DNA of 64,000 bases from Patescibacteria group bacterium (GTDB lineage Bacteria > Patescibacteriota > Minisyncoccia > UBA6257 > GWB1-50-10), in assembly GCA_024239035.1 (NCBI GenBank), contig JANBVK010000001.1, positions 171,010 through 235,009 on the forward strand. Reading direction: 5' to 3'. The stretch's first letter is position 1. The number at the start of each line of letters is the position of its first letter. The position numbers and the translations under genes were made by a program. Under the pieces are notes generated by a model, which was not told the origin of the DNA, did not search any database, and saw only the letters and a program-made list of their open reading frames with translations. Shown piece after piece: positions 1-23,243 of this stretch.

Positions 1-326
1 CAATCTTCACAATAAATTGTGTAGGGAGATTTTGAATTGTACATTGAGAGCATAGATTTTTTACACAAATCACACTGACGTTTGTAAAGTGTCCGCTCAT
101 TCCGAAACACAAGTTTCCTTTTCATCCGGCAATCAGGGCACAAACCAGGGCTCAGCACTTTCATTTTTTCATAAAACGCGAAATCATCAGGTTCAATCAT
201 GAACTCCTGTTTACAATTCTGGCAGGTCGAAGACGCTGAGCCTTGTCGAAGTGTCGAAGACGCTGAGCCTTGTCGAAGTGTCGAAGACGCTGAGCCTTGT
301 CGAAGTGTTTTATCTTCTTGATTCAT
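1..326 (-). CDS. Cys-rich zinc-ribbon array paralog (5' part only; runs off the window edge)
   Basis: Not in the ORF track. Manual translation from ATG 326: MNQEDK(TLRQGSASS)x3TCQNCKQEFMIEPDDFAFYEKMKVLSPGLCPDCRMKRKLVFRNERTLYKRQCDLC..., matching the N-termini of the other paralogs. Confidence 0.9.
   Translation of the reverse strand, partial: MNQEDKTLRQGSASSTLRQGSASSTLRQGSASSTCQNCKQEFMIEPDDFAFYEKMKVLSPGLCPDCRMKRKLVFRNERTLYKRQCDLCKKSMLSMYNSKSPYTIYCED
226..306. repeat. 27-bp tandem repeat x3 (gtcgaagacgctgagccttgtcgaagt), in frame, built from the family-A hairpin element
   Basis: Three exact copies at 226-252, 253-279 and 280-306, with no spacers; encodes TLRQGSASS x3. Confidence 0.95.
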
Positions 327-362
327 AATTCTCTATTCTAATTACCGGTCACTAATTACTAG

Positions 363-2135
363 TTACACCACCTCCGTCTGATAGCACGGTTCACAATATA
401 TAATTTCCGGTCTTTCCGGAGTGTATGTAGTATGAAACTCGTTGGAACATCTGTTCTTTAAATGATGTCTGTGTTTGGTAATATTTTTATAAACTTTATA
501 ATCACACATACACCGACGAGAATACCACCTTAACGGATTACGCATTTTTATCCTCTCCTCGTAGCGACACGCGTAACATAAACGCGGTAACGGTAAACCA
601 ATACGCTTATAAAATTGCAGTTCAGGAAGAACGATCCTGTAAGCTTTCTTGCACGATAAACATTCTATAATTTCCTTACAAATACTTCCATTAACGTCCT
701 TGATATGATCTGGCAAGTTCTCAGCAGACACTGTTATTGCAAACTCCCGAACCTCCGGCTCCCGCCAGACAAAACCTTTTTCCACCACCCCTTCCTTATC
801 CAGAGGAAGATAACTCACGGCAACGCTCTCATTATATGCCAAAGGTGAAAACTCCGGTGGAAAAAACTCCCCGTACTTGTATATCCTGTCATGAGAATTT
901 TTATACGGCATCTGGTTCATATGTTCTACAATTTTCTCGCGTAAGGTGTAAAATTCGTTTTTGGTGTACTGTTTATTCAAAATAAAATAAGATTTTTTAT
1001 TTAATCCTATGCATCCGAAAAGATTCGTTGATGAATGGCAATTCACAGAATACTCCAAATCTTCGCAGCCCGGCCAGCAATTAATGCAAAACTTTAATCT
1101 CTTACAGTCGGATCCACATACAACTGCCTCATATATCAACTCAGATTTATCACCCCAGCTTGTGTAATCATACGAATCAAAAACACGGTTAACTATATTC
1201 TGACAGTACTTTACTCTTTCAACTTCAGCGCACTGATAACAAAAGTGGGAATCTTTTGAACGGTATGCGTACTCACCACCCACAACATTAATTGTGTTAA
1301 AGCTGTGTGCGTATTTAAACGGGAATTTAGACCAAAATTTATACACTTTCTTCTTCATTTCAATCAATGAACCGTATGAACCAAGGTTAAATCCATGTAC
1401 TTTCTTATAATACTCCTCCTTAGTATAAGGAGTGTTGAATATATGATATTTCTTATGCCATAAGTTAACGCAGCCAAAACAGTTGTTACAATCCACGCAA
1501 TCCCGCGAAAACCACACATCTCTACAATCAACGCTCTCGGTGGAAAAAAAGGTCTTGTGGCAGCGGGCGCAAGAGAAAACCTCATAACAAAGTTCCAGAT
1601 GGTCACCTTGCGTAAAATCAACCGAACTTTTCGCATTTCTAAATCCTACGCCATACAAACAATCCTCCGAAGCATCACAATCAAAACAAAGATAACAATT
1701 TTTCAAAAAGCCTGCGTGATTGCAATAGTCACTATTTATAAGCTGTTTTATTTCTCGTGAAGGAAGAGGTACCTCATAGAGAAGTTCTCTGAATTGCTCA
1801 AAAAACGGGCGGGAGAAATCATAATCTCTGCCATACTCAAGCGGATCCCACTTGTCCGACCACCAGTAGTCGTGTTCGTAAATTTTAATCGGCGATGCCC
1901 TTGGATACGTAGAAAATATTTCCTTTTCCGTGCGAGCGTCTTTCTTACGAAATAGATTGTGCTCGTTCCAAAAAACAAACCGGCGAGTTGCCCGACATTC
2001 CGGACACCACGTCGGCGGCGGGACATTAATCCTTTTATAAAAACCTAAATCCCCCGGCTCAATTAAAAACTTAGCCCCGCAGTTTTGGCATGCCTGCGCT
2101 GAGCCTTGCCGAAGTGTTTTTGTTTCGTTGGGCAT
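363..2135 (-). CDS. Cys-rich zinc-ribbon array paralog (590 aa)
   Basis: CxxC modules at both ends; WWSDKWD..YGRDYDFSRPFFEQF, FGC(V/I)xL x2 and GEFFP motifs; I count 37 Cys. Confidence 0.9.
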   Translation of the reverse strand: MPNETKTLRQGSAQACQNCGAKFLIEPGDLGFYKRINVPPPTWCPECRATRRFVFWNEHNLFRKKDARTEKEIFSTYPRASPIKIYEHDYWWSDKWDPLEYGRDYDFSRPFFEQFRELLYEVPLPSREIKQLINSDYCNHAGFLKNCYLCFDCDASEDCLYGVGFRNAKSSVDFTQGDHLELCYEVFSCARCHKTFFSTESVDCRDVWFSRDCVDCNNCFGCVNLWHKKYHIFNTPYTKEEYYKKVHGFNLGSYGSLIEMKKKVYKFWSKFPFKYAHSFNTINVVGGEYAYRSKDSHFCYQCAEVERVKYCQNIVNRVFDSYDYTSWGDKSELIYEAVVCGSDCKRLKFCINCWPGCEDLEYSVNCHSSTNLFGCIGLNKKSYFILNKQYTKNEFYTLREKIVEHMNQMPYKNSHDRIYKYGEFFPPEFSPLAYNESVAVSYLPLDKEGVVEKGFVWREPEVREFAITVSAENLPDHIKDVNGSICKEIIECLSCKKAYRIVLPELQFYKRIGLPLPRLCYACRYEERIKMRNPLRWYSRRCMCDYKVYKNITKHRHHLKNRCSNEFHTTYTPERPEIIYCEPCYQTEVV

Positions 2136-2187
2136 AGGTCATTTAAAAATTAGAGGACCTTTCTTCCCTTATTATTCTACCTCAAAT

Positions 2188-3954
2188 CTATACTATCTCG
2201 CTCTGATAGCATTGCTCGCAATAAACGACCTCTTTCCTCTCTGGGGCGTAACTTGTTTCAAACTCATTGGGGCACCTCCCTTCCAGATGATGGATATGTT
2301 TCGCGGTATTTTCGCGCACTTTGTAATCACATACGCATTGTCTGTGCCAAAGTTTAAGAGGGTTTCGCATTGCAAATCGTTCCTTATAACGGCAGTTTTC
2401 GCATTTCCTAGGAAGCGCTATCTTTCTCATTCGCAGGAAATCAAGTTCTAGTTTCACTATTCGATACGCGCGTCCACAATCATTACAACCGATCACTTCT
2501 TTAATAATCGAGTCCTCTACGTCTTTTATATCCATAGGTAATTGCGATGACTGCATTGTAGGCGTATAAGGATACTTGTCTGGTTCTCGCCATGAATATC
2601 CCTTTCTTTCAGCCTGCTCTTTTGTAAGAGGCATATATTCCTGGGCAATTGTTTCGTTGTACGCATATAAGCTCAATCCAATTGGAAAAAATTCGCCGTA
2701 TTTATACACACATCCTGTTTTATCAGTATATGGCTTGTCATTCATATGCTCTTTAATTTTAGCTACGAGGGCACCATACTCTTCTTTAGAGTATTGCTTA
2801 TTAAAAATACAATATTCCTTTTTCCTCACACCCGAGCAGCCGAACATGTTGGTAGAATTAAGACACCAATACGCATAGTTACTATCCCTTGTTGCCTCAC
2901 CAAACATGGAAAAAAGAGTCTTATAGCATCCGAAGCCTCCAGCCATGAATTCGTACATTAATTCAGATGTCGCACAGCCAAACATGTCGTAAATCTCTTT
3001 AGCGCCAATTATCCTCGAACTATACTTAATGTTTTCCGATTCATACGCATCAAAAGTGAAATGGGCGTTTTTTGAATTTTCAATATTATCCCCTGTGCAA
3101 TTTATAGTTTTTGTGAAATTAGCGAACTTGTGAAGAGAAGATCTTATAAGCTTCTTGAATTCCTTTTTTAACTCTTGAAACTGGTTATGATTCCCCATGC
3201 TGATTTTATTTATCTCTTTTGAATATTCTTCTTTCGAGCACCGCCTATTTCTAAAAACATAACGTTGATTTCTCAAATTCGAGCTCATGAAACAATTTTG
3301 GCACCCCGAGCAGTCAAAAAGATATGCCGACTCGATGCATTCTCTTGAACGTAACGTAAAACTTGTCCTATTATTACGATCCCCGTCTATATTCTCGTAA
3401 ACCATTTCCGAACCTTCAATATTAAAACTATCAAAGCAGGTCTTGTCTTTGTCCATAAAGCGAGAGTAATATACGTCCTCACTTTCCAATACCGAGTACG
3501 AAAGGTATATGTTCTTGTTGTCAGCAATGAAATTTGCGTAATCTGAATTAATATTTGTATGATATTGTGCAATGGCAATTTGAGGAACTCTCACCAGCAG
3601 TTCTCTATATTGCTGAAAAAACGGCTTATCCCAATTGTATTCCACGCCATATTCAAGCGGATCCCACTTGTCGGAAAACCAACATTCACGGCAATAAACC
3701 TTATACGGTTTATCCGGCGAATACATTGAAATTATAGACTTACCACAAAGGTCACATGAGTCCTTATACAAAGTCCTCTCGTTTCTTACTGCCATACGTC
3801 TCTGTTGTCGGCAGTCCGGACAAAATGTCGGCGGTGGAACACTAATCTTCTCGTAAAACGAGAAGTCATCCGGTTCAATAGTGAACTGGTTTTTACAATT
3901 TTGACAGGTCGGAGATGCTGAGTCTTGTCGAAGTGTTTTGGTTTCGGTATTCAT
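2188..3954 (-). CDS. Cys-rich zinc-ribbon array paralog
   Basis: Same family motifs. Start moved from 3975 to ATG 3954 (MNTETK), which overlaps the upstream TGA as ATGA. Confidence 0.9.
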   Translation of the reverse strand: MNTETKTLRQDSASPTCQNCKNQFTIEPDDFSFYEKISVPPPTFCPDCRQQRRMAVRNERTLYKDSCDLCGKSIISMYSPDKPYKVYCRECWFSDKWDPLEYGVEYNWDKPFFQQYRELLVRVPQIAIAQYHTNINSDYANFIADNKNIYLSYSVLESEDVYYSRFMDKDKTCFDSFNIEGSEMVYENIDGDRNNRTSFTLRSRECIESAYLFDCSGCQNCFMSSNLRNQRYVFRNRRCSKEEYSKEINKISMGNHNQFQELKKEFKKLIRSSLHKFANFTKTINCTGDNIENSKNAHFTFDAYESENIKYSSRIIGAKEIYDMFGCATSELMYEFMAGGFGCYKTLFSMFGEATRDSNYAYWCLNSTNMFGCSGVRKKEYCIFNKQYSKEEYGALVAKIKEHMNDKPYTDKTGCVYKYGEFFPIGLSLYAYNETIAQEYMPLTKEQAERKGYSWREPDKYPYTPTMQSSQLPMDIKDVEDSIIKEVIGCNDCGRAYRIVKLELDFLRMRKIALPRKCENCRYKERFAMRNPLKLWHRQCVCDYKVRENTAKHIHHLEGRCPNEFETSYAPERKEVVYCEQCYQSEIV

Positions 3955-5651
3955 ATCACTTCCTTTTGATAACACTTCTCACAATAAACTATTTCCTTTT
4001 TCTCTGGAGCGTAACCCGTCTTAATTTCCTGACCGCATTTGGCGCATTTACGGTCCCACAGGCGCGGCGGATTGACACGACTCATCCGCTCCATGTGCCT
4101 GCAATCCGGACACTTCCTCGGTAAAGGGAATTCAAACCTGCGAAGCAGATCGAGTTCCGAACGCACTACGCGATATGCTTTTTTACAATCCATACATTCC
4201 AAAACTTCCTGAAGAATAGAATCCGTAACGTCATTGATGCTGTCGGGCATTTTTTCAGATAGTAATGTAATCTTATGCTCAGCCGGCGTTGGTTCGTGCC
4301 ACCGCCAGCCTTTCTCTAGTATCTGCTCCTTCGACAACGGGTAATACTGGTGCGCCGTGGTTTCATTATAATCGAATAAGCTTAGATCGTACGGAATAAA
4401 TTCTCCATATTTCCATACTCTGCCCTTGCTATCAACGTACGGACGCTCATTCATATCCTGAATGATTTTCCCTCTGAGCCTGCTAAAAGATTCTTTGTCG
4501 TACTGCTTGTTTAAAATACAATACCGTTTCTTCTTTACGCAGACACAGCCGAATACATTTGAAGAGGAAACCGCGAACATAGAATACTCATTCTCTAGAG
4601 CGGTATCCCACGTTCCAAAACAAAACCGTATGGTATCAGCCCCTTCTCCAACGGTGATAGAATCACACACACGCTGCACGCCATTCCCCCATTCACTGAG
4701 GTCATAAATATCCTTCGCCGGCTTCAAAGTCATAAACTGACAAAACTTCCCGTCTTCAACAAATCGAGTTTGGTACATATAGTGCGCATTCTTACACTCA
4801 TACACATAGTCTCCGGAAACGTTCACGTTATGAAACCCGTGTATAAATTTACGCGGAAATTTCTCCCAGAAAGTATGGGTTTTTTTCTTCTCTTCTATAA
4901 GAAAGGTATGTGAATCCAACTTTAATGCTTTTAATTTTTCCTCATACTCCTCTTTTGGGTACGGTTTATTGAATATATGATAGTTCTTGTTCCGCAGATT
5001 AACACAGCCAAAACAGTTGTTGCATCCAATGAGACTCTTCGAGAAATATACATCACTGCAACCACTGCAGTCTTCAGAAAAAAACGTCCGGTAACATTTC
5101 CGGCAGTTGATCACTTGATAACATAACTCTGACTCGTCAAGGATAAGCGCGTCCATGGAATCCTTGTCATAATTTACCGTCGTACCATAGAGAACGTTCT
5201 CGCAGTGGTCTGAGTTGAAAATAAGATAACAGTTTTTCGCATACCCTGCGTGGTTTACGTACTCACTATTTACGAGGGTGCTATATCCGGTGACCAAGCT
5301 CATATGCGGCACTTTTCTCTGAACTTCCTTAACCTGCTCAAAGAAATTCCGGCCGGAATCATACTCCATCGCATAATCATCAGAATCCCACTTATCAGAC
5401 CACCAGCACGGCTGGCAGTAAACCGTGTAGGGCTTATCCGGAGAAAAAATAGAAACCACGCTCTTACCGCATAAATCGCACTTACGTTTGTAAAAAACCC
5501 GTTCGTTGCGAAATATCAAACGCCGCTGAAACCTGCACTCCGGACAAAACGTCGGCGCTGGAACGTTCATTTTCTTATAAAAATCAAAATCTTCTGATTC
5601 AATCGTGAACTCCTTCTTACAATTTTGACATTTCTTAACTTCTTGATTCAT
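3951..5651 (-). CDS. Cys-rich zinc-ribbon array paralog (566 aa)
   Basis: CxxC-x24-CxxC-x18-CxxC-x17-CxxC at both termini; shared family motifs. Confidence 0.9.
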   Translation of the reverse strand: MNQEVKKCQNCKKEFTIESEDFDFYKKMNVPAPTFCPECRFQRRLIFRNERVFYKRKCDLCGKSVVSIFSPDKPYTVYCQPCWWSDKWDSDDYAMEYDSGRNFFEQVKEVQRKVPHMSLVTGYSTLVNSEYVNHAGYAKNCYLIFNSDHCENVLYGTTVNYDKDSMDALILDESELCYQVINCRKCYRTFFSEDCSGCSDVYFSKSLIGCNNCFGCVNLRNKNYHIFNKPYPKEEYEEKLKALKLDSHTFLIEEKKKTHTFWEKFPRKFIHGFHNVNVSGDYVYECKNAHYMYQTRFVEDGKFCQFMTLKPAKDIYDLSEWGNGVQRVCDSITVGEGADTIRFCFGTWDTALENEYSMFAVSSSNVFGCVCVKKKRYCILNKQYDKESFSRLRGKIIQDMNERPYVDSKGRVWKYGEFIPYDLSLFDYNETTAHQYYPLSKEQILEKGWRWHEPTPAEHKITLLSEKMPDSINDVTDSILQEVLECMDCKKAYRVVRSELDLLRRFEFPLPRKCPDCRHMERMSRVNPPRLWDRKCAKCGQEIKTGYAPEKKEIVYCEKCYQKEVI

Positions 5652-5659
5652 GGTTCATG

Positions 5660-7450
5660 CTATACCACCTCTGCGTTGTAACACTGTTCACAGTACACAA
5701 TCTCTTTCCTCTCCGGTGCATATGATGTCTCAAACTCATTGGGACACCTACTTTTACCATGGAAGTGTTCTGTGGTGTTTTCATATCTTGTAGCTTGCCC
5801 TGAGCCTGTCGAAGGGTCACACACGCACTGGCGATGCCAGAGTTTTCGCGGCGGACGCAGGGCAATTTTATTAAGGTAGCGACAGTGGGGACATAATCGG
5901 GGAATTGGTATTTTTTCCCTGCGATATAAATCAAATTCAGAACGTATAATGTTGTAATTTCTCTTGCACTTAACACACATAAGAACTTCATTCACAATAG
6001 AGTCCTCTACATCTTCTATTTTGTCAGGGATATCGTTCGGCTTCACTGTTTCCTTACCAAACGTGCCGGGAACCTGATCTTCCCATCTCCATCCCCTTTT
6101 CATTACTTCTTCTTTGCTAAGCGGCATGTAGATTTGCCCCTGTGTTTCGTTATAACCAAACGGAGAAATCTTTGCAGGGAAAAATTCCCCAAACTCTCCC
6201 GTCTCACTCATGTGCGCAATAATTTTACGTTTCAGCTCCTTATACTCCTCTTCGTTATAACGCTTGTTAAAAATTGAATATTTCCCTTGTTTCACCCCAA
6301 CACAACCGAATAAATTCTCGCTATTGTGGCAACTATCACAGTACATAATATGAGAATCATCATAACTCAGATTCGTGAACAATACGTTATAATCTCTAAT
6401 TAGTGCATGGCATTCATAAATTAATTCACAATTAAACCCAAAATGATACGAATCCATGCACTCCTTGGAATCAATGGCGACAATCAAATATTTTGCATCC
6501 TCTATTCCACTCGCATCAAAAGAATGATGAATATTCTTCGAATTGAATATCATGTTACCGGTGGCATTTGCTGACTGCAAAATTACCGCGGCACGATGTA
6601 ATACGTTATCACGAATTATCGCAAGCCACTTCTCATAAAGCTTTACCCTGCTCTCATACGAGCTCAAATTAAATTCTTCTATTTTCTTCTGGTATTCCTC
6701 TTTAGTATAGGGCTTGTTCAAAATATGATACTGCTTATTGCGGAGATTGTATGAAAGAAAACAATTTGAACAACCGCGACAATCGTAGCAATAATAACAA
6801 TTCGTGCAACCCTCCAACAAAAAACCGTACTGACTTTGATAACATTTATATGAATTAATACATTCGTAAAGAAGTTCATTGCTCTCTTTTTCAATACGAT
6901 AACAATCAATGCAATCTCGCGCAGGAAATATATTAGTGGAATACATCACGTTTTCCGACCAGCCACAACCAAAGCACAAGTAACAATTCTTGTTATCCCA
7001 CGCGTGGTTTGTATATTCTGAATTAACGCTGTTTTTTGTAAGGAGCGCGATGCGAGGCACCTGTAACTGTAGCTCCTGCCACTGCCCAAAAAATGGGCGC
7101 GAGAAATCAAAATCCCGCCCGTATTCCAGCGCATCCCATTTATCACTCCACCAACAAGGCGGGCAATACACCTTAAACGGTTTGTTTAGAGAATATATTG
7201 TTACCGTGCTTTTGCCGCATAAATCACATCTGCGGCGATAGAGCACCCGCTCATTCCGCCACGCATAACGCCTCTGCTGCCGGCAGTCAGGGCACAAAGT
7301 CGGCGGCGGGACACTTATCTTCTCATAAAACGCGAAGTCATCCGGCTTGATGGTAAATTTTTGCTCACAGCTCCGGCATACCTGCACTGAGTTTTGTTGA
7401 AGTGTCGAAGATGCTGAGTCTTCTCGAAGTATTTTAATTTGATTCTCCAT
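5660..7450 (-). CDS. Cys-rich zinc-ribbon array paralog
   Basis: Family motifs. Start moved to ATG 7450 (MENQIK), giving a TAATG overlap with the upstream stop. Carries repeat-derived peptides at both termini. Confidence 0.9.
   Translation of the reverse strand: MENQIKILREDSASSTLQQNSVQVCRSCEQKFTIKPDDFAFYEKISVPPPTLCPDCRQQRRYAWRNERVLYRRRCDLCGKSTVTIYSLNKPFKVYCPPCWWSDKWDALEYGRDFDFSRPFFGQWQELQLQVPRIALLTKNSVNSEYTNHAWDNKNCYLCFGCGWSENVMYSTNIFPARDCIDCYRIEKESNELLYECINSYKCYQSQYGFLLEGCTNCYYCYDCRGCSNCFLSYNLRNKQYHILNKPYTKEEYQKKIEEFNLSSYESRVKLYEKWLAIIRDNVLHRAAVILQSANATGNMIFNSKNIHHSFDASGIEDAKYLIVAIDSKECMDSYHFGFNCELIYECHALIRDYNVLFTNLSYDDSHIMYCDSCHNSENLFGCVGVKQGKYSIFNKRYNEEEYKELKRKIIAHMSETGEFGEFFPAKISPFGYNETQGQIYMPLSKEEVMKRGWRWEDQVPGTFGKETVKPNDIPDKIEDVEDSIVNEVLMCVKCKRNYNIIRSEFDLYRREKIPIPRLCPHCRYLNKIALRPPRKLWHRQCVCDPSTGSGQATRYENTTEHFHGKSRCPNEFETSYAPERKEIVYCEQCYNAEVV
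5783..5818. repeat. 36-bp segment containing a family-A hairpin (encodes DPSTGSGQATRY); identical copies at 12601-12636 and 16024-16059
   Basis: atatcttgtagcttgccctgagcctgtcgaagggtc occurs exactly three times, at the same protein position in three paralogs. Confidence 0.92.
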
Positions 7451-9135: not shown

Positions 9136-9152
9136 ATTCTTGGTCGCGGAGT

Positions 9153-10628: not shown

Positions 10629-10633
10629 AAATC

Positions 10634-12328: not shown

Positions 12329-12447
12329 ACGATTTTTTTGCTGTGCCCGTCCGTAGCCTTGGGCGAAGGAGGGTAAAAATCAAAATCCTCCGGTTCGATC
12401 TGAAAAACTGATTTACAATTCTGACAATTTCTAGTTTCGCTATTCAT
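12325..12447 (-). pseudogene. 40-aa truncated paralog (N-terminal CxxC knuckle only) with an in-frame hairpin insertion
   Basis: Manual translation MNSETRNCQNCKSVFQIEPEDFDFY-PPSPKATDGHS-KKIV*; its TGA overlaps the next ATG (ATGA). Confidence 0.75.
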
Positions 12448-12458
12448 AGTCTTAGTCT

Positions 12459-12486
12459 GAGGTGGTATGACATGTTATACCACCTC
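12459..12486. repeat. 28-bp near-perfect palindrome overlapping a paralog stop codon
   Basis: gaggtggtatgaca|tgttataccacctc; 13 of 14 pairs match. Confidence 0.8.
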
Positions 12487-14244
12487 CGTGTTATAGCAGG
12501 TCTCACAATACACAATCTCCTTCCTCTCCGGTGCGTATGATGTCTCAAACTCATTGGGACACCTGCCCTCTGGGTGATGAGAATGTTTTGTGGTGTTTTT
12601 ATATCTTGTAGCTTGCCCTGAGCCTGTCGAAGGGTCACAAAGGCACTGGCGGTGCCATAACCTATTCGGTCCGCGTGCATTGAATCGCCGCGCGTGCCGG
12701 CAATCGGGACAAAGACGGGGCAAAGGAATGTGCAGATTTCGGTAGAACGAAAACTCGTTTGATATAATCTTATAGTTTTTCTTGCAGTTAAGACAGACAA
12801 AAATCTCGCGCTTCACGTCCAGGTCGTGAACATCGTAAATAGAGTCAGGAACTTTATCCCACGAAATGGTTTCTTTACCAAAAGTACCTCTAGGATAATC
12901 TTCCCATTTGAATCCTTGCTTCAACGCTTCTTCTTTCAATAAAGGGAATTGTTCCTGAACGCATGCCTCATTGTATCCAAAAGTACTAAGCGGCGGCGGG
13001 AAAAATTCTCCATAAACGCCCTCTTTTTTCATATCTTCTATAATGGTTGTCTTTAGTTTCTCGAAAGTCCCTTTGTCATATTCTTTATTTAAAATGCAGT
13101 ACTGCCTCTTCCGCAAACCCGCTGAACCAAAGCAGTGCTGAGAATCATAACAGTACATGCAATATGTTAAAAAGCTGTTTCCCCAACATAAGCTGCAACA
13201 AATACATTGAGAGCTATTGAGTCCGGTATTTGTGGAATTATAGACCAATTCCGCTCCCCGACCAGCGGTGTCACAATCAACACAATCTTTGGCGTTTCGC
13301 CACACATGCACGCTGTATGCGCAATCTTCGGCGTCGTATGCGTGAAAACAGGAACGACAGTTTTTTACATTCTTGATATAATTTCCCGTTGTATTAGTTG
13401 CATTCACGATTTCAGCAAATTTTTGAGGTTGCGTAGCTGCAAATTTTTGAAATTCCTTGCGAAGTTTCTCCACACCGCTATACGTATCTAACTTTGCTGA
13501 TTCCAAAAATTCCCCGTATTCTTTCTTTGAAAGCGGTTTATTAAAAACATGATATTGCTTATTGCGAAGGTTTACGCACCCTATACAATTTGATGAACCA
13601 CGACAATCAAGGAGAAAATAACTCTCGTTTGAATCATGACAACCCTTGCTGTAGAAAAGTTTGTACGAATTATAACAATCGTCGGACTCATAAGAGAGCT
13701 CAGTTTGGTGAGCAAATGAAACGTCAACGCAACTTTTACAGACTTGTATCCAATAACAGTGGGTGCAGTCTTCGTTGTTGGAAGATTCAACAATCATGTA
13801 GCAATTCTTGTTATCCGCAGAGATATTAATGTATTCCGAATTAACGCTTCGCACATGAATGAGGGCTACTTTAGGAACGACTTTCCACAATTCATGAAAC
13901 TGCTCAAAAAAGGGCTTTCCTGAAATATAATTGCGCCCATAATCTCTTGGGTCCCAATCGTCCGAGAACCAGCAGTCATGACACCACACGGTGTATGGCT
14001 TGTTAGGATTATACATTGAGACAATATCTTTCTTACAACGATCACATGGACGTTTATAAAACACTCTCTCGTTCCGGAACGCTAAGCGCCTCTGCGCACG
14101 GCACAAGGGGCACATCTGCGGTACTAGAGTCCCTATTTTCTTATAAAACGAAAGATCATCCGGTTGGATGATGAATTGACTTCTACAGTTTTGGCAGGCC
14201 TGCGCTGAGCTTTGTCGAAGTATTTTATTTTCCGCCTTTTTCAT
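12475..14244 (-). CDS. Cys-rich zinc-ribbon array paralog (589 aa)
   Basis: Family motifs; repeat-derived peptides at both termini. Confidence 0.9.
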   Translation of the reverse strand: MKKAENKILRQSSAQACQNCRSQFIIQPDDLSFYKKIGTLVPQMCPLCRAQRRLAFRNERVFYKRPCDRCKKDIVSMYNPNKPYTVWCHDCWFSDDWDPRDYGRNYISGKPFFEQFHELWKVVPKVALIHVRSVNSEYINISADNKNCYMIVESSNNEDCTHCYWIQVCKSCVDVSFAHQTELSYESDDCYNSYKLFYSKGCHDSNESYFLLDCRGSSNCIGCVNLRNKQYHVFNKPLSKKEYGEFLESAKLDTYSGVEKLRKEFQKFAATQPQKFAEIVNATNTTGNYIKNVKNCRSCFHAYDAEDCAYSVHVWRNAKDCVDCDTAGRGAELVYNSTNTGLNSSQCICCSLCWGNSFLTYCMYCYDSQHCFGSAGLRKRQYCILNKEYDKGTFEKLKTTIIEDMKKEGVYGEFFPPPLSTFGYNEACVQEQFPLLKEEALKQGFKWEDYPRGTFGKETISWDKVPDSIYDVHDLDVKREIFVCLNCKKNYKIISNEFSFYRNLHIPLPRLCPDCRHARRFNARGPNRLWHRQCLCDPSTGSGQATRYKNTTKHSHHPEGRCPNEFETSYAPERKEIVYCETCYNTEVV

Positions 14245-14248
14245 AAAC

Positions 14249-15901
14249 TTATGATATCTGAGTTTGATAACAGTCTGTACACATAACTTTCCGGTAACCC
14301 CACTTCCGAGGATAGAAGTGATTAACTTTCCTGGAACAAAAGATGCACGATCCCCGGTAAGACTTTAACACAGTGAGCGGCTTGAACCGTTCACGTGTTC
14401 GCCAGTCAGGATGATGACGTGGAAGAGGAATTCCGTGCTCCTTATAAAAAGCGAGTTCGTGGCGAGCTATATTAAAGCGCCAGCCGGTTTCAGGACAGAT
14501 AATTGCCTGCGCAGTTATATCATCTCCTACGTTATCAATTCTATCCGGCAGGTCATCCCCGCTTATTCCCTCATAAGCTGTTTCCCGAACATCATCCCAT
14601 CGCCCTCCAATTTTCTCAATATCCTCTTTAGTTTTAGGGAAATACCATTGGGCAAGAGTTAAATTATATCCTGAATACGCAAACGAATATGGAAGAAACA
14701 ATCCCCATTCACCTCTCTGCTTCATCTGTTCTTTAATTTTTGATGTGAGTTTTGCATACTCATCTTCGGTATACTGCTTGTTTAAAATACAATGCTTTTT
14801 CTTTCTTAATCCCACACAGCCAAAACAGTTCTCACAATCCTCACAATAATCTAAATATGCCGAGTGGCGACAATTCGAGCACCACACGTTTACAATTGCA
14901 TCATAATAGGTAATCCCTATACTCATCGCACTCTTTTCTGCCCTGCCAATACCGACAGAATCAATCACATCCTTGTTTTCTAATCCCCTGAATACATATC
15001 TGCAATTCTCTGATTTTTCTAAAAAGTAACACGAGAAACAATCTTTACACTCATTGATAAAGTTTCCGATGGAATTAGTAACTTTAACGTTAAAATTTTC
15101 TCTATGTACGGCCTCTCTCGCCGTAATATCGCTGAACTCTTTCTTGAGTTCTTGAACCTTCTTATATGAATGAGTGTCAAACTTCTTAAGTTCTTCAAAA
15201 TATTTCTCCTTGGAATACGGTTTGTTGAGAATATGATATTGCTTATTTCTCAAATTCCAGCACATAAAACAGTTCTGGACATTGCGACAGTCATAAAGGA
15301 ACATACTCTCCATACAATTTCTAGCATCAAAGGCGTATTTCACCCTGTAGCACTTAAAACAGTAGAGACAATCATAAGACAACTCTGAGTCGAAACAGTA
15401 GGCAAGATCAATTGAATTTTTGCACCCAAAAGCGCGATAGCTATAGCTCAAATATTCACTGCCTATCATTGCTCGACACAAATAGCAGTCCCTACATTCC
15501 CATATGTCGTCACACCAATCACAATTTACGTTCTTTACCCCCTGCTGATGGGGGTGTGGAACACTGGAACGCAACTCCCCAAATTGTTCAAGGAAAGAAC
15601 GTGAAAAATCATATTCTTTTCCATAATCCGTCGGATCCCAGGCATCAGACACCCATTCATTCCGGGCATAAATAGGAAATCCAGCACTCTCCGGTAGTAC
15701 CGTAATTATTGTCTTCCCGCTCAAATCAGACTTTGTTTTTCGAAACTTTCCGAATGTCCAGAAAGCTAACTGATGTCTCCAGCGACACCTCCGGCACTCC
15801 TTTGAGGGAGGAGTGCCTATTTTCTTATACAGGTTAAAATCCTCCGGTCTGATAGTGAACCGCCGCTCACAACTTTTACAAGTTTTAATCTCAGCTATCA
15901 T
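14249..15901 (-). CDS. Cys-rich zinc-ribbon array paralog (550 aa)
   Basis: Family motifs, more divergent; ATGA overlap with the upstream gene. Confidence 0.88.
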   Translation of the reverse strand: MIAEIKTCKSCERRFTIRPEDFNLYKKIGTPPSKECRRCRWRHQLAFWTFGKFRKTKSDLSGKTIITVLPESAGFPIYARNEWVSDAWDPTDYGKEYDFSRSFLEQFGELRSSVPHPHQQGVKNVNCDWCDDIWECRDCYLCRAMIGSEYLSYSYRAFGCKNSIDLAYCFDSELSYDCLYCFKCYRVKYAFDARNCMESMFLYDCRNVQNCFMCWNLRNKQYHILNKPYSKEKYFEELKKFDTHSYKKVQELKKEFSDITAREAVHRENFNVKVTNSIGNFINECKDCFSCYFLEKSENCRYVFRGLENKDVIDSVGIGRAEKSAMSIGITYYDAIVNVWCSNCRHSAYLDYCEDCENCFGCVGLRKKKHCILNKQYTEDEYAKLTSKIKEQMKQRGEWGLFLPYSFAYSGYNLTLAQWYFPKTKEDIEKIGGRWDDVRETAYEGISGDDLPDRIDNVGDDITAQAIICPETGWRFNIARHELAFYKEHGIPLPRHHPDWRTRERFKPLTVLKSYRGSCIFCSRKVNHFYPRKWGYRKVMCTDCYQTQIS

Positions 15902-17694
15902 ATTACTTCACTTTGATAACATTGTTCGCAGTATACAATCTCTCTCCTTTCTGGAGCATAACTTGTCTCAAATTCATTGGGACACCTGCCTTCCAGGTGA
16001 TGATCATGCTTCGTGATATTCTTATATCTTGTAGCTTGCCCTGAGCCTGTCGAAGGGTCGCATACGCACCGGCGATGATACAACTTACTCTTATTTCTCT
16101 GGGCAACCCTCGCATTGTGCCTACAGTCCACACACGTCCGGGGCGCAGAAATCTTTTCTACACGCAGGAAATCAAGTTCCGGTTTAATGAGCCGATACGC
16201 CCTTTTACAATCACTGCACCGAATAATCTCCTTTAAAATACTATCCTGAATATCGTTTATGGAGTCGGGTATATCTTCCGATTTCATCGTAATCTCATAC
16301 TCCCGCGATGACGGTTCCTGCCATTTATATCCTTCTTCCTCTGCCTGTTCTTTCGTCAACGGAAAATGCTCGTTGGCAATGGTTTGATTGTAACCAAAAG
16401 GAGAAAGTTCTATGGGGAAAAACTCACCGTATTTATAGATCCTTCCTTTTTTATCAATATATGGCTTTTCACCCATTTGCTTCTTAATTCTCTCTACCAG
16501 CATTTCATACTCCTCTTTAGAATATTCTTTGTTTAAAATACAATGTTGCTTTTTACGCAAACCAACGCAACCGAATAAATTTGATGCCGAATGACAATAT
16601 ATACAATATTCCATATCCCGAATGTCCGTCCATGACTCGACGCAGAACTTCACGTTAAACGTCCCCATACCGGTAACAGCATTCTCATACCCCAATTGAT
16701 TGTTCTGACCCCAAACCGTCACATCATAGCAGTCTTTATTGGGTGGAAACTGGTAATATTGAACATATTTTAAGTTTTCACCTTCTCTAACTAAGTAACT
16801 TTGGCGGACATTTTTAGAGTTGGTAACGTACTCACCGCTCACGTTAGTGTTTTTAATCCCTTGTAGATACTTATTGGGAAACTTCTTCCAAAACTCACTT
16901 ACACCCCCTTTCACCGCAGTAAGGCCGTTCCACGAATGCAAATTCATCCCCTTAATCTTTCTTTCATATTCCTCCTTGGAATAAGGAGTATTATAAATAT
17001 GATACTTTTTATTGCGGAGGTTAACACACCCAAAACAATCACTGCAACCTTTGCAATTCTTTGAAAACCACACGCCGTGACAGTCCTCGCACTGTGAAGA
17101 AAAGTGCGTTTGATAACAATTCTCCAGCCAGAACGAGTCATAGCAACGCTCACACCTACCGATATGTGAATTGTCAAAACAGTTCTTACAATTATCCACT
17201 CCGTTACCATAGGCACAATCTTCGTCCTTATTTGAGTTAAACATCAAATAGCAGTTTCTCAGATAGCCGGCATTGGCGCAATATTCGCTGTTTACCATAT
17301 TAAGCACTGAAAGATTAAATCTTGGTACCACTTTAGCAAGTTCGAAAAATTGTTCAAAAAAGGTTCGTGAAAAATCGTAATCCCTTCCGTAGGAGGTTGC
17401 ATCCCAATCATCAGCCCACCACTCTTTCTCTTCATATAAAGTAACTTCTGATTCCGGAGGATAGAGAGCTAAAATTTCCTTCCCGGATTTTGCGCTCTTT
17501 GTTCTAAAGAGTTTCCGCTCGTTGCGAGACGCAATCCTTCTCTGAAATCTACACTCCGGACAAAACGTCGGCGGCGGGACGCTGATTTTCTTGTAGAAAT
17601 CAAGGTCCTCCGGTTCGATGGTGAACTCTGTTTTACAGTTCTGGCAGGTCGAAGACACTGAGTCTTGTCGAAGTGTTTTGGTTTCAGTATTCAT
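15898..17694 (-). CDS. Cys-rich zinc-ribbon array paralog
   Basis: Family motifs. Start moved to ATG 17694 (MNTETK), ATGA overlap. Confidence 0.9.
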   Translation of the reverse strand: MNTETKTLRQDSVSSTCQNCKTEFTIEPEDLDFYKKISVPPPTFCPECRFQRRIASRNERKLFRTKSAKSGKEILALYPPESEVTLYEEKEWWADDWDATSYGRDYDFSRTFFEQFFELAKVVPRFNLSVLNMVNSEYCANAGYLRNCYLMFNSNKDEDCAYGNGVDNCKNCFDNSHIGRCERCYDSFWLENCYQTHFSSQCEDCHGVWFSKNCKGCSDCFGCVNLRNKKYHIYNTPYSKEEYERKIKGMNLHSWNGLTAVKGGVSEFWKKFPNKYLQGIKNTNVSGEYVTNSKNVRQSYLVREGENLKYVQYYQFPPNKDCYDVTVWGQNNQLGYENAVTGMGTFNVKFCVESWTDIRDMEYCIYCHSASNLFGCVGLRKKQHCILNKEYSKEEYEMLVERIKKQMGEKPYIDKKGRIYKYGEFFPIELSPFGYNQTIANEHFPLTKEQAEEEGYKWQEPSSREYEITMKSEDIPDSINDIQDSILKEIIRCSDCKRAYRLIKPELDFLRVEKISAPRTCVDCRHNARVAQRNKSKLYHRRCVCDPSTGSGQATRYKNITKHDHHLEGRCPNEFETSYAPERREIVYCEQCYQSEVI

Positions 17695-19436
17695 ACCACT
17701 TCCGCCTGATAGCACTCCTCACAATAGGGCTTGTAGCCATCAGTAGATTTATAACTGGAGTAAATTTCCTTGTTACAATTGTGACACTTTTCGGGGAAAA
17801 TCCGATAGTTGTTCAAAATGGCAAATCGATCAACTATCCTTTGGTAGGGATATCTGGTTGGGATAGGCAGTTTTTTTCTTCTGTAAAACTTGAGTTCGGA
17901 AGAAATAATCCGAAAGGGATAGCCGGTCTTCTCGCAAATAAGAGCTTTATTTACAATATCATCAGTGACATCTTTAATATCTTTTGGAATATCACGAACA
18001 GAAACCGTCTCCATTCCCTTGACATCAATATTGACTTCTTCTTGCCACAGAGCACCAAACTTCTCAATTTGCTCTTTATTTAACGGAAAGATGATCTGGG
18101 CCATCGAATCATTGTAGGCGAAGGTACTAAATTTCAAGGGGAAAAATTCTCCATACTCTCCCCTTTCTAAAAGCTTTGTTTTAATGTCATCAACTATTGC
18201 CCAATATTCATCCTCCTCATACTGTTTATTAAAAATACAATACTGTTTATTCTCTACACCGACACAAGCGAAACAATTAATGCAATGGAGACAATTTATC
18301 AAGTACTCCGATTCGATAATAAACTTTGAAGCGAAAGAAAACTTGACCCTTGAACCCTCGGAACCTACTCCTACTGTCTCATATAGTAATTCCGAACCAC
18401 CCGAAATGCTGTAGTCCATTGAATCTTTATTCCTAACGGTTATTTCAGCAAATCTGAGGTTCTCTGACTTCTCAGCGTGAAAAACGTTGTCACAATTCTT
18501 GCAGCTGGCAATTTGATTCCCAAACGAATTATGTGACTTATCAATTCTAGTAGCTCTGACGGGAGACTCCTTAACCAGATTCCAAAACTTAGCTTTATAG
18601 CCCTCGAGTAATTCCCTATCACCAAGGTAAATTTTCTTTCTCTCTTTTCTATATTCTTCTTCGGATAATTGTTTATTAAAAATACAATATTTCTTATTCC
18701 GAAGGTTAACACAGCCAAAGCAGTCACTGCAGTTACGGCAATCATAAATGAAGGCGCAATCTAAGCAATCATTTGAAAAGTAAGCATAATCACATCGGTA
18801 GCATTTCTTGGTAAGAACGCTTTCATAACACTGTTCACATTTCCAAATACTATAACAATCAATGCTGTCCCTGGAGTTAAAAACTGACATGCTATAAGAT
18901 ATATTCTCGGAACGCCAGCCTCCTGAGACATAGTAGCCATTTTTCAAATCTCTCCCTCCTAGGGTGTAGTCGCTGTTTATACAATAAGGATCACGAATAA
19001 TAGTGGGTTGAGGAACAACGCTTCTCAATTTTTCATAATAAGTATCAAAAAATGGCTCGCTAACCTCATATTCCTGGCCATATTTCAGGGGATCCCAGCC
19101 GGCTGACCGATAAAATTTAAAATCATATACGGTAAAATCTTTCACGGGCGAAACAAAAGAGACAACTTGCTCATCATGCCGGGGAGCATCACAGGACCGT
19201 TTATATAATTTAATAGTGTGTCCGAAGGTCAAACGTCTCTGCCGACGGCAGTTAGGACAGAGGGTGGGCGGGGGCACGCGGAGTAAATTATAAAACTCAA
19301 TATCCCTTTCTATTATTTCAAACTCTTTCAAACAATAAGGTGATTTCCCCGACCAAGCACATTTCCTGGTATGCGGCTTGATATCCTTCAATATCTCATC
19401 AAGCGCCCTGTCAAATTGTGGCGTTTTAGATATCAT
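17691..19436 (-). CDS. Cys-rich zinc-ribbon array paralog with a divergent, extended N-terminus (581 aa)
   Basis: PPPTLCPNCR, CFGCVNLRNKKY, GEFFP and YCEECY motifs. Confidence 0.88.
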   Translation of the reverse strand: MISKTPQFDRALDEILKDIKPHTRKCAWSGKSPYCLKEFEIIERDIEFYNLLRVPPPTLCPNCRRQRRLTFGHTIKLYKRSCDAPRHDEQVVSFVSPVKDFTVYDFKFYRSAGWDPLKYGQEYEVSEPFFDTYYEKLRSVVPQPTIIRDPYCINSDYTLGGRDLKNGYYVSGGWRSENISYSMSVFNSRDSIDCYSIWKCEQCYESVLTKKCYRCDYAYFSNDCLDCAFIYDCRNCSDCFGCVNLRNKKYCIFNKQLSEEEYRKERKKIYLGDRELLEGYKAKFWNLVKESPVRATRIDKSHNSFGNQIASCKNCDNVFHAEKSENLRFAEITVRNKDSMDYSISGGSELLYETVGVGSEGSRVKFSFASKFIIESEYLINCLHCINCFACVGVENKQYCIFNKQYEEDEYWAIVDDIKTKLLERGEYGEFFPLKFSTFAYNDSMAQIIFPLNKEQIEKFGALWQEEVNIDVKGMETVSVRDIPKDIKDVTDDIVNKALICEKTGYPFRIISSELKFYRRKKLPIPTRYPYQRIVDRFAILNNYRIFPEKCHNCNKEIYSSYKSTDGYKPYCEECYQAEVV

Positions 19437-21124
19437 ACAACCTCACTTTGATAACATGGTTCGCAATATACAATTTCGGGTCTGTCAGGAGCATAGGTAG
19501 TCCTTATCTTCTTCTTGCACTTCGCGCACTCGCGGTCATAAAGCTTCATTGGATTGAGTTTCTTCACGCGCGCATAATCCCGACACAGCGGGCATTTTTG
19601 CGGAATAGGAATCTGAAATCTGCGATAGAGGTTCAATTCACCCTTTATTAACTTATAGTTCTTGCCGCATTTTTCACACTTGAGAATCCCTTTCAAAATG
19701 TCATCCGTCACGTCTCTAATATGGTCCGGTACACTCACGGTTGCATCCTGATACTCCCGTAAATCGGGGTCTCGCCACCGAAATCCCTTCTTTAAGGCCT
19801 CTTCCTTACCGAGCGGATACCATTCGTATGCGGTAGATTCATTGTATGCCCACGGGAGAAACTCCGCAGGAAACAACTCGCCATACCTATACTCTCTGCC
19901 AAGCTTATCCCGATATGGGACCTCTATCATTTGCTTTTTTATTTTCTGGACTTTATCCTGATATTCATCTTTTGAATACTGCTTATTTAAAATACAGTAT
20001 TCAGAACTTCGTATTCCAACACACCCAAAAATATTTCCGGAGCCATGGCATCCGAAACAATACTCTACATCGTGACAACGATAAACCCACTCTCCAAATT
20101 TCACATTATTAACGTTGATACCCGTCCAGGAACTCTCATAAATCCATTCCGCTTTATCCGCAAACATCGTGTAGTCATATGATTGCGCTACGGGACCATC
20201 CTTTAGCAGCTGACAATATCTGCAATTCTCACCGTTTCTGACCATAAATGAATCTTGTACGTTTTTGCAGCTAAAAATGTAATCCCCGGAAGAATTTGTG
20301 TTTTTCCTCCCATGAAATTCTTTACGAGGAAATTTTCTTATAAAATCGTTAACCTTTTTCTTGAATTCCCCAACGCTTTTCGCCGAACCGAAGTTAAATT
20401 CACCAACCAGTCGCTCGTACTCCTCTTTTGAGTAAGGTTTATTAAAAATGTGATAACTTTTATTCCTTAAATTGATACAGCCGACACAAGAAGAACACCC
20501 CATAAGATCTTGAGAAAACCATATATCGTGGCAATCCTCGCAATCCTGTGAATAAAACGTCCGGTAACATTTATTAATCGTCACCGATCCGTAGCAGAGC
20601 TCACAGTTATTAGAAAACGAAACGTCAAAACAATCCTTCATATATTGGATTGTATTCAAATATGCGCAATCCTCGCTGTGATCTGCTTTGAAACATAAAT
20701 AACAATTCTTTAACGTAGCGGCGGCATTACAGTACTCGCTGTTTATCATCGTTGTATATTCGGTGTAGAGCGCCGGGAAGGGAACCTCCTGCAACAATTC
20801 GTGGAACTGTTCAAAAAATGATCGGGAGAAATCATAATCCCGCCCATAACTTTTAGAATCCCACTTATCAGACCACCATATATCTTGGCGGTATACCTTA
20901 TGCGCCAAGTCCGGAGAATGAACGGATATCACCATATCCCCTGTGAAATCACACTTACGCTTATAGAGAACGCGGTATCCTTGTGCTGCTACTCTCCGTA
21001 TGAACCGGCACTCCGGACACCATGTCGGCGGCGGCACATGTATTGTCTCATAAAACCCAAAATCATCCGATTCAATCGTGAACTTTTGCTTACAGCTTTG
21101 ACACTGTCGAGTTTCTTGCTTCAT
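19433..21124 (-). CDS. Cys-rich zinc-ribbon array paralog, first gene of the array (563 aa)
   Basis: Family motifs throughout. Confidence 0.9.
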   Translation of the reverse strand: MKQETRQCQSCKQKFTIESDDFGFYETIHVPPPTWCPECRFIRRVAAQGYRVLYKRKCDFTGDMVISVHSPDLAHKVYRQDIWWSDKWDSKSYGRDYDFSRSFFEQFHELLQEVPFPALYTEYTTMINSEYCNAAATLKNCYLCFKADHSEDCAYLNTIQYMKDCFDVSFSNNCELCYGSVTINKCYRTFYSQDCEDCHDIWFSQDLMGCSSCVGCINLRNKSYHIFNKPYSKEEYERLVGEFNFGSAKSVGEFKKKVNDFIRKFPRKEFHGRKNTNSSGDYIFSCKNVQDSFMVRNGENCRYCQLLKDGPVAQSYDYTMFADKAEWIYESSWTGINVNNVKFGEWVYRCHDVEYCFGCHGSGNIFGCVGIRSSEYCILNKQYSKDEYQDKVQKIKKQMIEVPYRDKLGREYRYGELFPAEFLPWAYNESTAYEWYPLGKEEALKKGFRWRDPDLREYQDATVSVPDHIRDVTDDILKGILKCEKCGKNYKLIKGELNLYRRFQIPIPQKCPLCRDYARVKKLNPMKLYDRECAKCKKKIRTTYAPDRPEIVYCEPCYQSEVV

Positions 21125-22724: not shown

Positions 22725-23243
22725 TTACAGCACTCCCACCTCCTTAAGAAAGGACTCGTAACTCCTCAAAACCATCTTGGCGTCTGTCGGTGATAAAACA
22801 AAGCCGGGTGTGTGAACTAAATTATTGCGAATCTTGTGAGCCTTCCATAAACTCTCTACTGTTTTCAGGTCTCGAGTCCCTAAACGCTCCAATCGATCGG
22901 CCATGTGTTCACCTTTCAAATCCATACGTTTTAATATGTCGTCAATAAAACTATCTGCCTCAATAATACCGAGCGTTAATGACTGCGGCGGAGACCTGTG
23001 GGCTTTCTCCACAACCTGCTGCCAGCGTCCCTTCAGTACCGCATCTTTTAAAAGTAGGCCTCCTTTAGCCGGCTTAGGATTAAAAACAAATTTCGGACGA
23101 AACGGTAATGATTTAATAAAAACGAACACAAATAAGATTATTAGAACAATATCGAGAACTATAAAAACAACCCTTAAAGTAAAAAATATGTCTCTCCAAG
23201 GGATACCCGAAAACCATTGAAAAGCAGATTGGATAAAATTCAT
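22725..23243 (-). CDS. Hypothetical membrane-anchored protein
   Basis: 172 aa; one hydrophobic helix, then a helical domain (IIEAD...AHKIRNNLVH); operonic spacing. Confidence 0.75.
   Translation of the reverse strand: MNFIQSAFQWFSGIPWRDIFFTLRVVFIVLDIVLIILFVFVFIKSLPFRPKFVFNPKPAKGGLLLKDAVLKGRWQQVVEKAHRSPPQSLTLGIIEADSFIDDILKRMDLKGEHMADRLERLGTRDLKTVESLWKAHKIRNNLVHTPGFVLSPTDAKMVLRSYESFLKEVGVL

What the first reader, a model, noticed from the sequence alone, without database searches (positions are those of the whole stretch)
1..21124. A >21-kb operon of at least 12 divergent Cys-rich double-zinc-ribbon paralogs: candidate undescribed system
Seen: 11 complete, 1 edge-truncated and 1 remnant paralogs lie head to tail on one strand with ATGA/TAATG overlaps or short gaps (4-52 bp). 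They share a fixed scaffold (WWSDxWD, DFSRPFFEQF, FGCVxL..K.Y.I.N..Y.KEEY twice, GEFFP, terminal YCExCY.xEV) but differ strongly between these motifs. None has a signal peptide or TM helix, and the array continues past the left edge. Established: CPR genomes are small and usually lack amino-acid biosynthesis, so this much Cys-heavy paralogy is costly. Inference: it is a maintained repertoire of cytoplasmic metal-binding proteins with variable surfaces, such as ligand or phage sensors, subunits of a hetero-oligomeric polymer, or a metal/redox/Cys store. I cannot assign it to a characterised system; single homologues may already exist as hypothetical proteins.
Basis: partly seen in the sequence, partly recalled or inferred. 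Interest (0 to 1): 0.9.

Follow-up and report, generated by a model that had tools for sequence, protein, structure and literature searches.

The report
Zinc-solenoid partners of orphan coupling ATPase
A tiny-genome Patescibacteria bacterium carries sixteen old, intact copies of an unnamed protein predicted to have zinc fingers and two beta-coils; across relatives one secretion-type motor ATPase keeps its likely docking surfaces almost only where these genes are present, so they are likely its interchangeable partners, a lead to what this motor does.

Summary
Observation confirmed, with corrections. The array holds 13 intact paralogs over 24.3 kb, is split by a leucyl-aminopeptidase gene, and has three more copies elsewhere (16 genes, 3.5% of a 0.79-Mb genome). 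The model (pLDDT 91) shows two narrow beta-solenoids between duplicated zinc-finger pairs, with no close solved fold. The copies are old and under purifying selection.

In three genome samples S stays highly conserved almost only where the family is present (12 of 12, 11 of 12 and 17 of 18 family-positive genomes). Without the family S is not found or is decayed: all-alpha domain identity falls from 94% to 40%, Walker motifs erode, and a C-terminal P-[LMIV]-[ILV] motif is usually lost. A tail-plus-paralog prediction gave weak support (0.59 against 0.00 for controls).

Best reading: interchangeable cytoplasmic adaptors docking on S (0.42). Main rival: exported substrates (0.30). This scan found the family and its ATPase adjacency many times before on other DNA. 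My paper searches found no description of the family.

The parts
3..326 (-). 5' part of a paralog cut by the window edge (complete, 580 aa, in the genome; one more paralog lies beyond it)
363..2135 (-). paralog, 590 aa; second N-terminal zinc site lost
2188..3975 (-). paralog (ORF aa; likely start is the ATG overlapping the previous stop)
3951..5651 (-). paralog, 566 aa; all four Cys4 sites; the copy that was modelled and docked
5660..7474 (-). paralog (ORF aa)
7450..9135 (-). paralog, 561 aa
9153..10628 (-). leucyl aminopeptidase (M17) gene inside the array; also near the family or the ATPases in 3 other loci; probably a bystander
10634..12328 (-). paralog, 564 aa
12373..12447 (-). remnant: first codons of a lost paralog, followed by a dispersed repeat motif
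12475..14244 (-). paralog, 589 aa; 70% identical to a copy in another family of the order
14249..15901 (-). divergent paralog, 550 aa; two zinc sites lost
15898..17715 (-). paralog (ORF aa)
17691..19436 (-). divergent paralog, 581 aa; two zinc sites lost
19433..21124 (-). first paralog of the array, 563 aa, 84 bp behind the ATPase gene
21209..22702 (-). ATPase 'S', 497 aa, VirD4/TraD/TrwB-like, soluble; the inferred partner
21209..21226 (-). C-terminal tail motif of S (EEPLI-stop), kept with the family and usually lost without it
21989..22318 (-). all-alpha domain of S (residues 129-238, borders inferred from the alignment): 94% identical among family-positive genomes, 40% among family-negative
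22725..23243 (-). 172-aa protein with a hydrophobic N-terminal segment; conserved operon member, with or without the family
23246..24652 (-). 468-aa membrane protein homologous to the N-terminal part of the longer ATPases; candidate anchor for S
24664..25686 (-). 340-aa sigma70-region-4 plus HARE-HTH protein heading the conserved operon

Best explanation
The array encodes a set of soluble proteins, predicted to be zinc-finger-capped double beta-solenoids, that likely dock one at a time on the cytoplasmic face of the coupling-type ATPase S encoded just upstream and would act as exchangeable adaptors choosing what that motor handles. Shown: the genes, their age and constraint, their linkage to S, and the decay of S where they are missing. 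Predicted: the fold, and weakly a contact between the tail of S and a paralog. Inferred: docking uses the tail motif and the all-alpha domain of S. The near-invariant last finger (CxxC-x17-CxxC, ending E-V-x) is the common docking or nucleic-acid-binding part, and the variable solenoids set specificity. The family would supply in trans the finger that the paralogous ATPase M carries in its own tail. The cargo is unknown. I put functional partnership with S at about 0.8, and this particular cytoplasmic-adaptor form at about 0.42.
For: Linkage: 33 of 78 loci hold such an ATPase against about 3.6 expected on a rough model; it is the direct same-strand neighbour in 36 of 110 family loci. Same family of bacteria: S is 78-86% identical in all 12 family-positive genomes of 24, and 46-66% or not found in the 12 others. 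Controls do not split this way: RpoB 74-82% vs 69-79%, the 784-aa ATPase 56-69% vs 49-65%. Phylum sample: S at E<=1e-140 in 11 of 12 positive and 1 of 188 negative genomes; that one hit is type M, and the missing positive has a frameshifted S with the tail intact. Class sample: 17 of 18 vs 5 of 132. Tail motif in 13 of 13, 20 of 20, 11 of 11 and 17 of 17 complete family-linked S genes (samples overlap a little; 2 cut-off genes dropped), against 2 of 12 in genomes without a full family gene; it ends 1 of 635 long ORFs of this genome. All-alpha domain 94% vs 40%. Walker B altered in 3 of 7 negatives and 0 of 26 positives. Last zinc site kept in 88 of 89 copies, second site in 46. M has PF23477 in its tail. 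Complex of S residues 430-497 with one paralog: weak support, score 0.59, best of 3 controls 0.00, partner pLDDT 39-42, runs agree in at least 25% of contacts; 116 of 157 solved and 2 of 215 mismatched pairs reached the mark, but at 0.60 or under only 18 solved and both mismatches. Precedents: TraM binds the TraD C-terminal tail (PMC3159463, passages); substrates bind the VirD4 all-alpha domain, or adaptors bind C-terminal extensions (PMC8740702, passages).
Against: No binding is shown; a pass at this score is, by the tool's own account, more often wrong than right unless the guess was likely beforehand. Exceptions: G028 and G254 have the family but no S was found (draft genomes); G371 keeps a 78% S with its tail and has no family gene; G248 keeps a 75% core without family or tail. 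Genomes are kin: in the RpoB tree the negatives of this family fall into about 3-4 groups, and the decayed S proteins cluster together, so independent losses are few. The E-value cut-offs were picked, and decayed S genes in distant genomes would fall under them unseen. All-alpha-domain binding plus a conserved C-terminal domain fits exported substrates equally well. M keeps its finger in genomes without the family, so the finger does not need S. The profile match of the family's last finger to M's is weak (probability 21%, E 0.001). No expression data.
Confidence: 0.42

Rival explanations
1. The paralogs are the cargo: a repertoire of effector-like binders that S recognises through their conserved C-terminal finger and passes to the type IV secretion system for delivery into the host cell or to the surface.
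For: The all-alpha domain, the surface most constrained here, is the one that binds effector signals in Xanthomonas VirD4 (PMC8740702, passages). The last finger and a free E-V-x end are near-invariant, and only 58 of 233 gene ends look like a ribosome-binding site, so the end is kept at protein level. The repertoire is patchy and mixed between genomes: 15 of 16 copies have their nearest relative in another genome. VirB4-like and PrgI genes are present near dnaA. No signal peptide is needed for this route.
Against: All copies keep one fold and one length (550-605 aa), with no interchangeable toxin or enzyme domain and no immunity-like neighbours. Four zinc sites would have to be unfolded. The same finger is fused to ATPase M itself. 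The array is about 230 kb from virB4. In the one tested species the coupling-protein gene was not essential while the secretion genes were (PMC12102498, text parts 1-4 of 7).
Confidence: 0.3
2. Family and S work in one pathway without direct contact, for example S imports or moves DNA and the paralogs bind or process nucleic acid through their basic zinc modules.
For: Co-retention shows a shared function, not contact. S is a distant relative of the DNA-translocating ATPases CedD and HerA (weak hits). Three of the four zinc modules are basic on average.
Against: It does not explain a five-residue terminal motif behind a disordered linker that is lost with the family, nor the weak complex pass.
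Confidence: 0.15
3. The paralogs are sensors for phage proteins or stress and switch S on as a defence effector.
For: Patchy presence, variable cores and old mixed repertoires are typical of conflict systems. HerA-type ATPases occur in defence systems (recalled; a weak NF042943 hit at E 0.07).
Against: No PADLOC match for 4 of 4 copies tested. Neighbours are housekeeping genes, not defence genes. No full-length copy in viral contigs, phages or plasmids. The S operon is conserved in place.
Confidence: 0.08
4. A metal, redox or cysteine store, or a self-assembling polymer unrelated to the ATPase.
For: 535 cysteines in 16 proteins; CutA genes neighbour the family in 9 of 110 loci; CxxC-x17-CxxC proteins bind zinc (PMC12704099, passages).
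Against: A store needs no 16 diverged copies, and gives no reason for S to decay without them. Half of the same-family genomes lack it.
Confidence: 0.05

Closest known systems
Type IV coupling proteins (VirD4, TraD, TrwB) with tail-bound adaptors, e.g. TraD-TraM
   Same: S has the same ATPase family signature (PF10412, PF02534, PF01935) and a flexible acidic tail ending in a short conserved motif, as TraD does (PMC3159463, passages).
   Different: S has no membrane anchor and lies far from virB4. The partner is a 65-kDa zinc-finger/solenoid protein in up to 16 or more versions, not a small ribbon-helix-helix DNA binder.
VirD4 with effector repertoires carrying a shared C-terminal signal domain (Xanthomonas XVIPCD; Bartonella BID, seen in a search listing only)
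   Same: Many diverged genes tied to one coupling ATPase, a conserved C-terminal domain, and a highly conserved all-alpha domain.
   Different: No such signal-domain family was matched; the whole fold is shared by all copies; no catalytic or immunity parts were found; export is untested.
zf_Tbcl (PF13451) and zf_Tbcl_2 / CxxC-x17-CxxC (PF23477, TIGR04272) zinc fingers
   Same: Both ends of each paralog carry this finger pair; some copies pass the Pfam cut-off. Zinc binding is shown for small Methanosarcina members (PMC12704099).
   Different: Known members are small or single-finger fusions; here the pair is duplicated around two solenoids. Their function is unknown too.
Narrow beta-solenoids: ryegrass ice-binding protein 3ult, hexapeptide acyltransferases, YadA heads
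   Same: General coil shape of the solenoids (best Z 6.1, rmsd 2.6, 101 residues aligned).
   Different: Identity 3-15%, Foldseek TM-scores about 0.1; these are matches of a common arrangement, with no shared sequence signature.

Membership tests
Type IV coupling protein (for ATPase S) | P-loop ATPase core with Walker A and B, matching TrwB/VirD4 profiles | tested here: met
   PF01935, PF02534, PF10412 above their cut-offs; motifs intact
Type IV coupling protein (for ATPase S) | N-terminal membrane anchor in the same chain | tested here: not met
   Maximum hydropathy 1.42; the upstream 468-aa membrane protein matches the N-terminal part of the fused ATPases and may replace it
Type IV coupling protein (for ATPase S) | Works with a VirB4 channel | tested here: inconclusive
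   VirB4-like and PrgI genes exist about 230 kb away; physical coupling cannot be tested here
Type IV coupling protein (for ATPase S) | Cognate relaxase and transfer origin (conjugative members) | not tested
   No relaxase search was run; PMC12102498 reports relaxases in only 103 of 3035 Patescibacteria genomes
zf_Tbcl / CxxC-x17-CxxC zinc fingers (domain level) | Paired CxxC motifs matching PF13451 or PF23477 | tested here: met
   Above cut-off in 2 of 11 window copies and 3 genome copies; weaker in most others
zf_Tbcl / CxxC-x17-CxxC zinc fingers (domain level) | Binds zinc | not testable with these tools
   Inferred from Cys4 patterns and from relatives (PMC12704099)
T4SS effectors with XVIPCD or BID signals | The family's own C-terminal signal domain | tested here: not met
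   No such match among Pfam or NCBIfam hits for 11 of 11 copies at E<=0.1
T4SS effectors with XVIPCD or BID signals | Translocation into a target cell | not testable with these tools
   Needs an experiment
TraM-type tail-binding adaptors | Ribbon-helix-helix DNA-binding domain and tetramerisation domain | tested here: not met
   No profile match; the predicted fold is unrelated
Hexapeptide (left-handed beta-helix) acyltransferases | Hexapeptide sequence signature | tested here: not met
   No hexapeptide profile among hits at E<=0.1
Hexapeptide (left-handed beta-helix) acyltransferases | Same coil fold | tested here: inconclusive
   Z 4-5, rmsd 2.6-3.5; Foldseek TM about 0.1
Beta-solenoid ice-binding proteins | Same coil fold with a regular ice-binding face | tested here: inconclusive
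   Z 6.1 to 3ult, Z 3.0 to 1ezg; the surface was not examined
Catalogued anti-phage systems (PADLOC 2.0) | Profile match | tested here: not met
   0 families for 4 of 4 copies at E<=0.1

The most novel reading that the evidence does not exclude
Patescibacteria have built a programmable motor: one orphan coupling-type ATPase with a terminal docking peptide, served by a swappable library of zinc-capped beta-solenoid proteins (1 to more than 16 per genome) that set which host or cellular molecules it pumps, or that are themselves the first large effector family of these epibionts. Lineages that lose the library let the motor decay in visible steps.
Probability: 0.45. Interest if true: 0.88.

Novelty: new variant of a known kind. 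Interest (0 to 1): 0.74.

Why it matters
Patescibacteria carry 5,713 VirD4-like proteins in 2,918 genomes, only 148 of them near virB4, and their role is open (PMC12102498). This finding picks out one subtype, names a partner family for it, and gives two small surfaces to test (a five-residue tail and a 110-residue domain) with soluble proteins that can be made in E. coli. A cell with 0.8 Mb spends 3.5% of its DNA on the family, so it probably bears on how these epibionts deal with hosts. Genomes that lost the family give a natural decay series.

Tried and rejected
Family libraries: no full-length hit in Pfam, NCBIfam (11 copies), PHROGs or PADLOC (4 copies); only weak finger hits and a weak match of the solenoid to phrog_15341. 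PDB by sequence: only LIM-like finger matches at E>=0.014. Fold searches of the whole model and of the last 164 residues gave no clear match (best Z 6.1 and 2.8); this does not show a new fold, and the N-terminal fingers were not searched alone. ESM Atlas returned only hypothetical Patescibacteria clusters. Mobile origin: one 42-residue fragment in viral contigs, nothing in phages or plasmids. Recent local duplication: rejected, since synonymous sites between the 16 copies are saturated and nearest relatives are in other genomes. Gene conversion: only a hint at the 3' end (84% DNA identity over 180 bases between two copies, pS 0.42). Ribosome-binding-site explanation of the E-V-V end: insufficient. 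Hairpin role for the dispersed repeat: not supported (z 0.5 to -1.1). Third component: no other neighbour above 9 of 110 loci. Expression: no RNA holder listed. The shorter-length search returned fragments, one labelled 'archaeon'; range outside Patescibacteria was not surveyed, and three of the 78 loci (L023, L034, L049) carry proteobacterial record titles that I did not check. dN/dS could not be computed for the saturated pairs (my counts give pS above 0.75). Papers: searches (listings only) showed no description of the family; the phrase 'caib baif family protein', a label I recalled, had 0 occurrences in the 15 papers listed. The 2019 survey of CPR protein families (recalled) was not read, and supplements of PMC12102498 were not opened; either may list this family as an unnamed cluster.
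Full report
Observation. The window lies at C1:171010-235009 of a 794,594-base genome. Eleven complete paralogs of 550-605 aa, an edge-cut copy and a short remnant lie on the minus strand from 3 to 21124. The genome shows 13 complete copies over C1:167812-192133 and three more at C1:65214, 126559 and 128512: 27,987 bases, 3.5% of the genome, with 24-41 cysteines each. A leucyl aminopeptidase gene interrupts the array. Named homologues are Patescibacteria. The family is large: 7378 of 8000 scored candidates and 2415 representatives at 50% clustering with E<=1e-30.

The genes are real and old. The 16 copies are 30-51% identical, and 15 have their nearest relative in another genome among 89 proteins compared. 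In 10 of 10 cross-genome pairs synonymous sites are saturated while pN is 0.17-0.28. Among the 40 differences listed (of 805) by the read tool, all from a related strain, the 33 codons inside family genes were 21 synonymous and 12 not. Depth over the array is flat in the likely source run.

The protein. AlphaFold2 with 128 sequences gave pLDDT 91 and pTM 0.90. Residues 1-82 repeat at 480-566 (profile probability 99.6), and 119-262 repeat at 266-402 (99.9). So each chain has a zf_Tbcl plus CxxC-x17-CxxC finger pair at each end and two capped beta-solenoids between. The solenoids are the least conserved parts (29-34% among the 11 window copies) and are acidic. The four Cys4 sites are kept in 83, 46, 67 and 88 of 89 copies; the last is near-invariant. 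No library or structure search found a close relative.

The partner. The gene 84 bp upstream encodes a 497-aa VirD4/TraD-like ATPase, here S. The genome has two more, M (596 aa, on C2) and L (784 aa, window 54676-57030). Such an ATPase lies in 33 of 78 family loci from other genomes, on the same strand in nearly all, against about 3.6 expected. Among 24 genomes of the same family, 12 have the paralogs (2-26 matches) and 12 have none. In all 12 positives S is 78-86% identical to this one, higher than RpoB; in the negatives it is 46-66% (six genomes) or not found (six). RpoB, ATPase L and the three operon genes upstream of S show no such split. Core identity of S is 82% among positives and 50% among negatives, against 75% and 73% for RpoB. 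Terminal branches are 0.05-0.14 vs 0.25-0.86 for S and 0.09-0.22 vs 0.14-0.37 for RpoB.

The pattern holds more widely. In 200 genomes of the phylum, 12 have the family; 11 have S at E<=1e-140, and the twelfth has a frameshifted S. One of 188 negatives passed, and it is type M. In 150 genomes of the class, 17 of 18 positives and 5 of 132 others have S at E<=1e-145. Those five form a graded series: G333 has a deletion remnant of a family gene and an intact S; G371 has an intact S and no family gene; G248, G283 and G244 have lost the tail and are 75, 65 and 55% identical. G028 and G254 have the family with no S found. Kin are not independent and the cut-offs were informed, so the counts overstate the number of events.

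Which surfaces. The all-alpha domain is 94% identical among positives, more than the nucleotide-binding core (77-82%), and 40% among negatives. Every complete family-linked S examined ends, after an acidic low-complexity linker, in P-[LMIV]-[ILV] (13 of 13, 20 of 20, 11 of 11, 17 of 17). Only 2 of 12 S genes in genomes without a full family gene do. Walker B is altered in 3 of 7 negatives. In studied coupling proteins these two surfaces recruit substrates or adaptors (PMC8740702 and PMC3159463, passages). ATPase M carries a CxxC-x17-CxxC finger in its own tail, in genomes with and without the family. A predicted complex of S 430-497 with the 566-aa paralog and four zinc ions scored 0.59 against 0.00 for three controls, with partner pLDDT 39-42: weak support, and no interface was given.

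Mechanism. I infer that the paralogs dock on S and act as exchangeable adaptors, supplying in trans the finger M has in cis, with the solenoids choosing cargo (0.42). The close rival is that they are themselves exported (0.30); a VirB4-like and PrgI cluster exists near dnaA. A shared pathway without contact (0.15), a defence sensor (0.08) and a store or polymer (0.05) remain. What S moves is unknown.

Known or new. The ATPase superfamily and the finger domains are known; most Patescibacteria VirD4-like proteins are orphans of unknown role (PMC12102498, text parts 1-4 of 7 read). My paper searches found no description of the family (listings only). Fifteen earlier scan reports on other genomes describe the family, 14 of them with its ATPase adjacency; I read them after forming my view, and they are not independent evidence. 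I file it as a new variant of a known kind: it likely works like a coupling protein with its clients, but the family is a member of no described client family.

Noticed in passing
window 240-320, 2100-2115, 3920-3935, 5800-5815, 7415-7430, 9100-9115, 12620-12635, 14205-14220, 16040-16055, 17660-17675 (minus strand): A dispersed repeat motif (CTTCG-N5-7-CTCAG) occurs 38 times in the genome; 14 copies sit in family genes or remnants, which cover 3.6% of the DNA (p about 2e-11). In the intact genes it is read in frame near the start or in a loop near the end; the edge gene has three tandem copies. No unusual folding.
   Followed up: partly
window 12373-12447; G000 C1:128369-128470; L211:1472-1620: Remnants keep only the first codons of a lost copy, or its first and last codons, which suggests loss by deletion between the similar ends of genes.
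   Followed up: partly
G000 C2:33561-35351: ATPase M carries a CxxC-x17-CxxC finger in its tail; in several relatives M closes the array, but here it lies on another contig.
   Followed up: yes
window 54676-57030: Third VirD4-like ATPase (784 aa) with an N-terminal membrane segment and a part homologous to the 468-aa protein; its conservation does not follow the family.
   Followed up: yes
L108, L161, L163, L165, L169, L170: In distant lineages S is 730-760 aa; in five of these six the extra N-terminal part matches the 468-aa protein, mostly without a membrane segment, and all keep the tail motif.
   Followed up: partly
L062:3662-3970 and 8 other loci: CutA genes are direct neighbours of family genes in 9 of 110 loci, DnaJ in 5; may be local synteny.
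   Followed up: no
window 24664-25686: Sigma70-region-4 plus HARE-HTH protein heads the conserved operon with the 468-aa, 172-aa and S genes in all 18 same-family relatives whose S locus was fetched; role unknown.
   Followed up: partly
window 59194-63999: Type IV pilus-type cluster: ATPase, PilC-like protein and two LamG-domain proteins, one with an N-methylation motif.
   Followed up: no
window 12475-14244 vs L101:1-1735: This copy is 70% identical to one in G028, a different bacterial family whose RpoB is 67% identical, hinting at exchange of single copies between lineages.
   Followed up: no
L174:631-2712 (G183): S gene with a frameshift near its end; the other frame ends in the tail motif. 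Assembly error or recent damage not resolved.
   Followed up: partly
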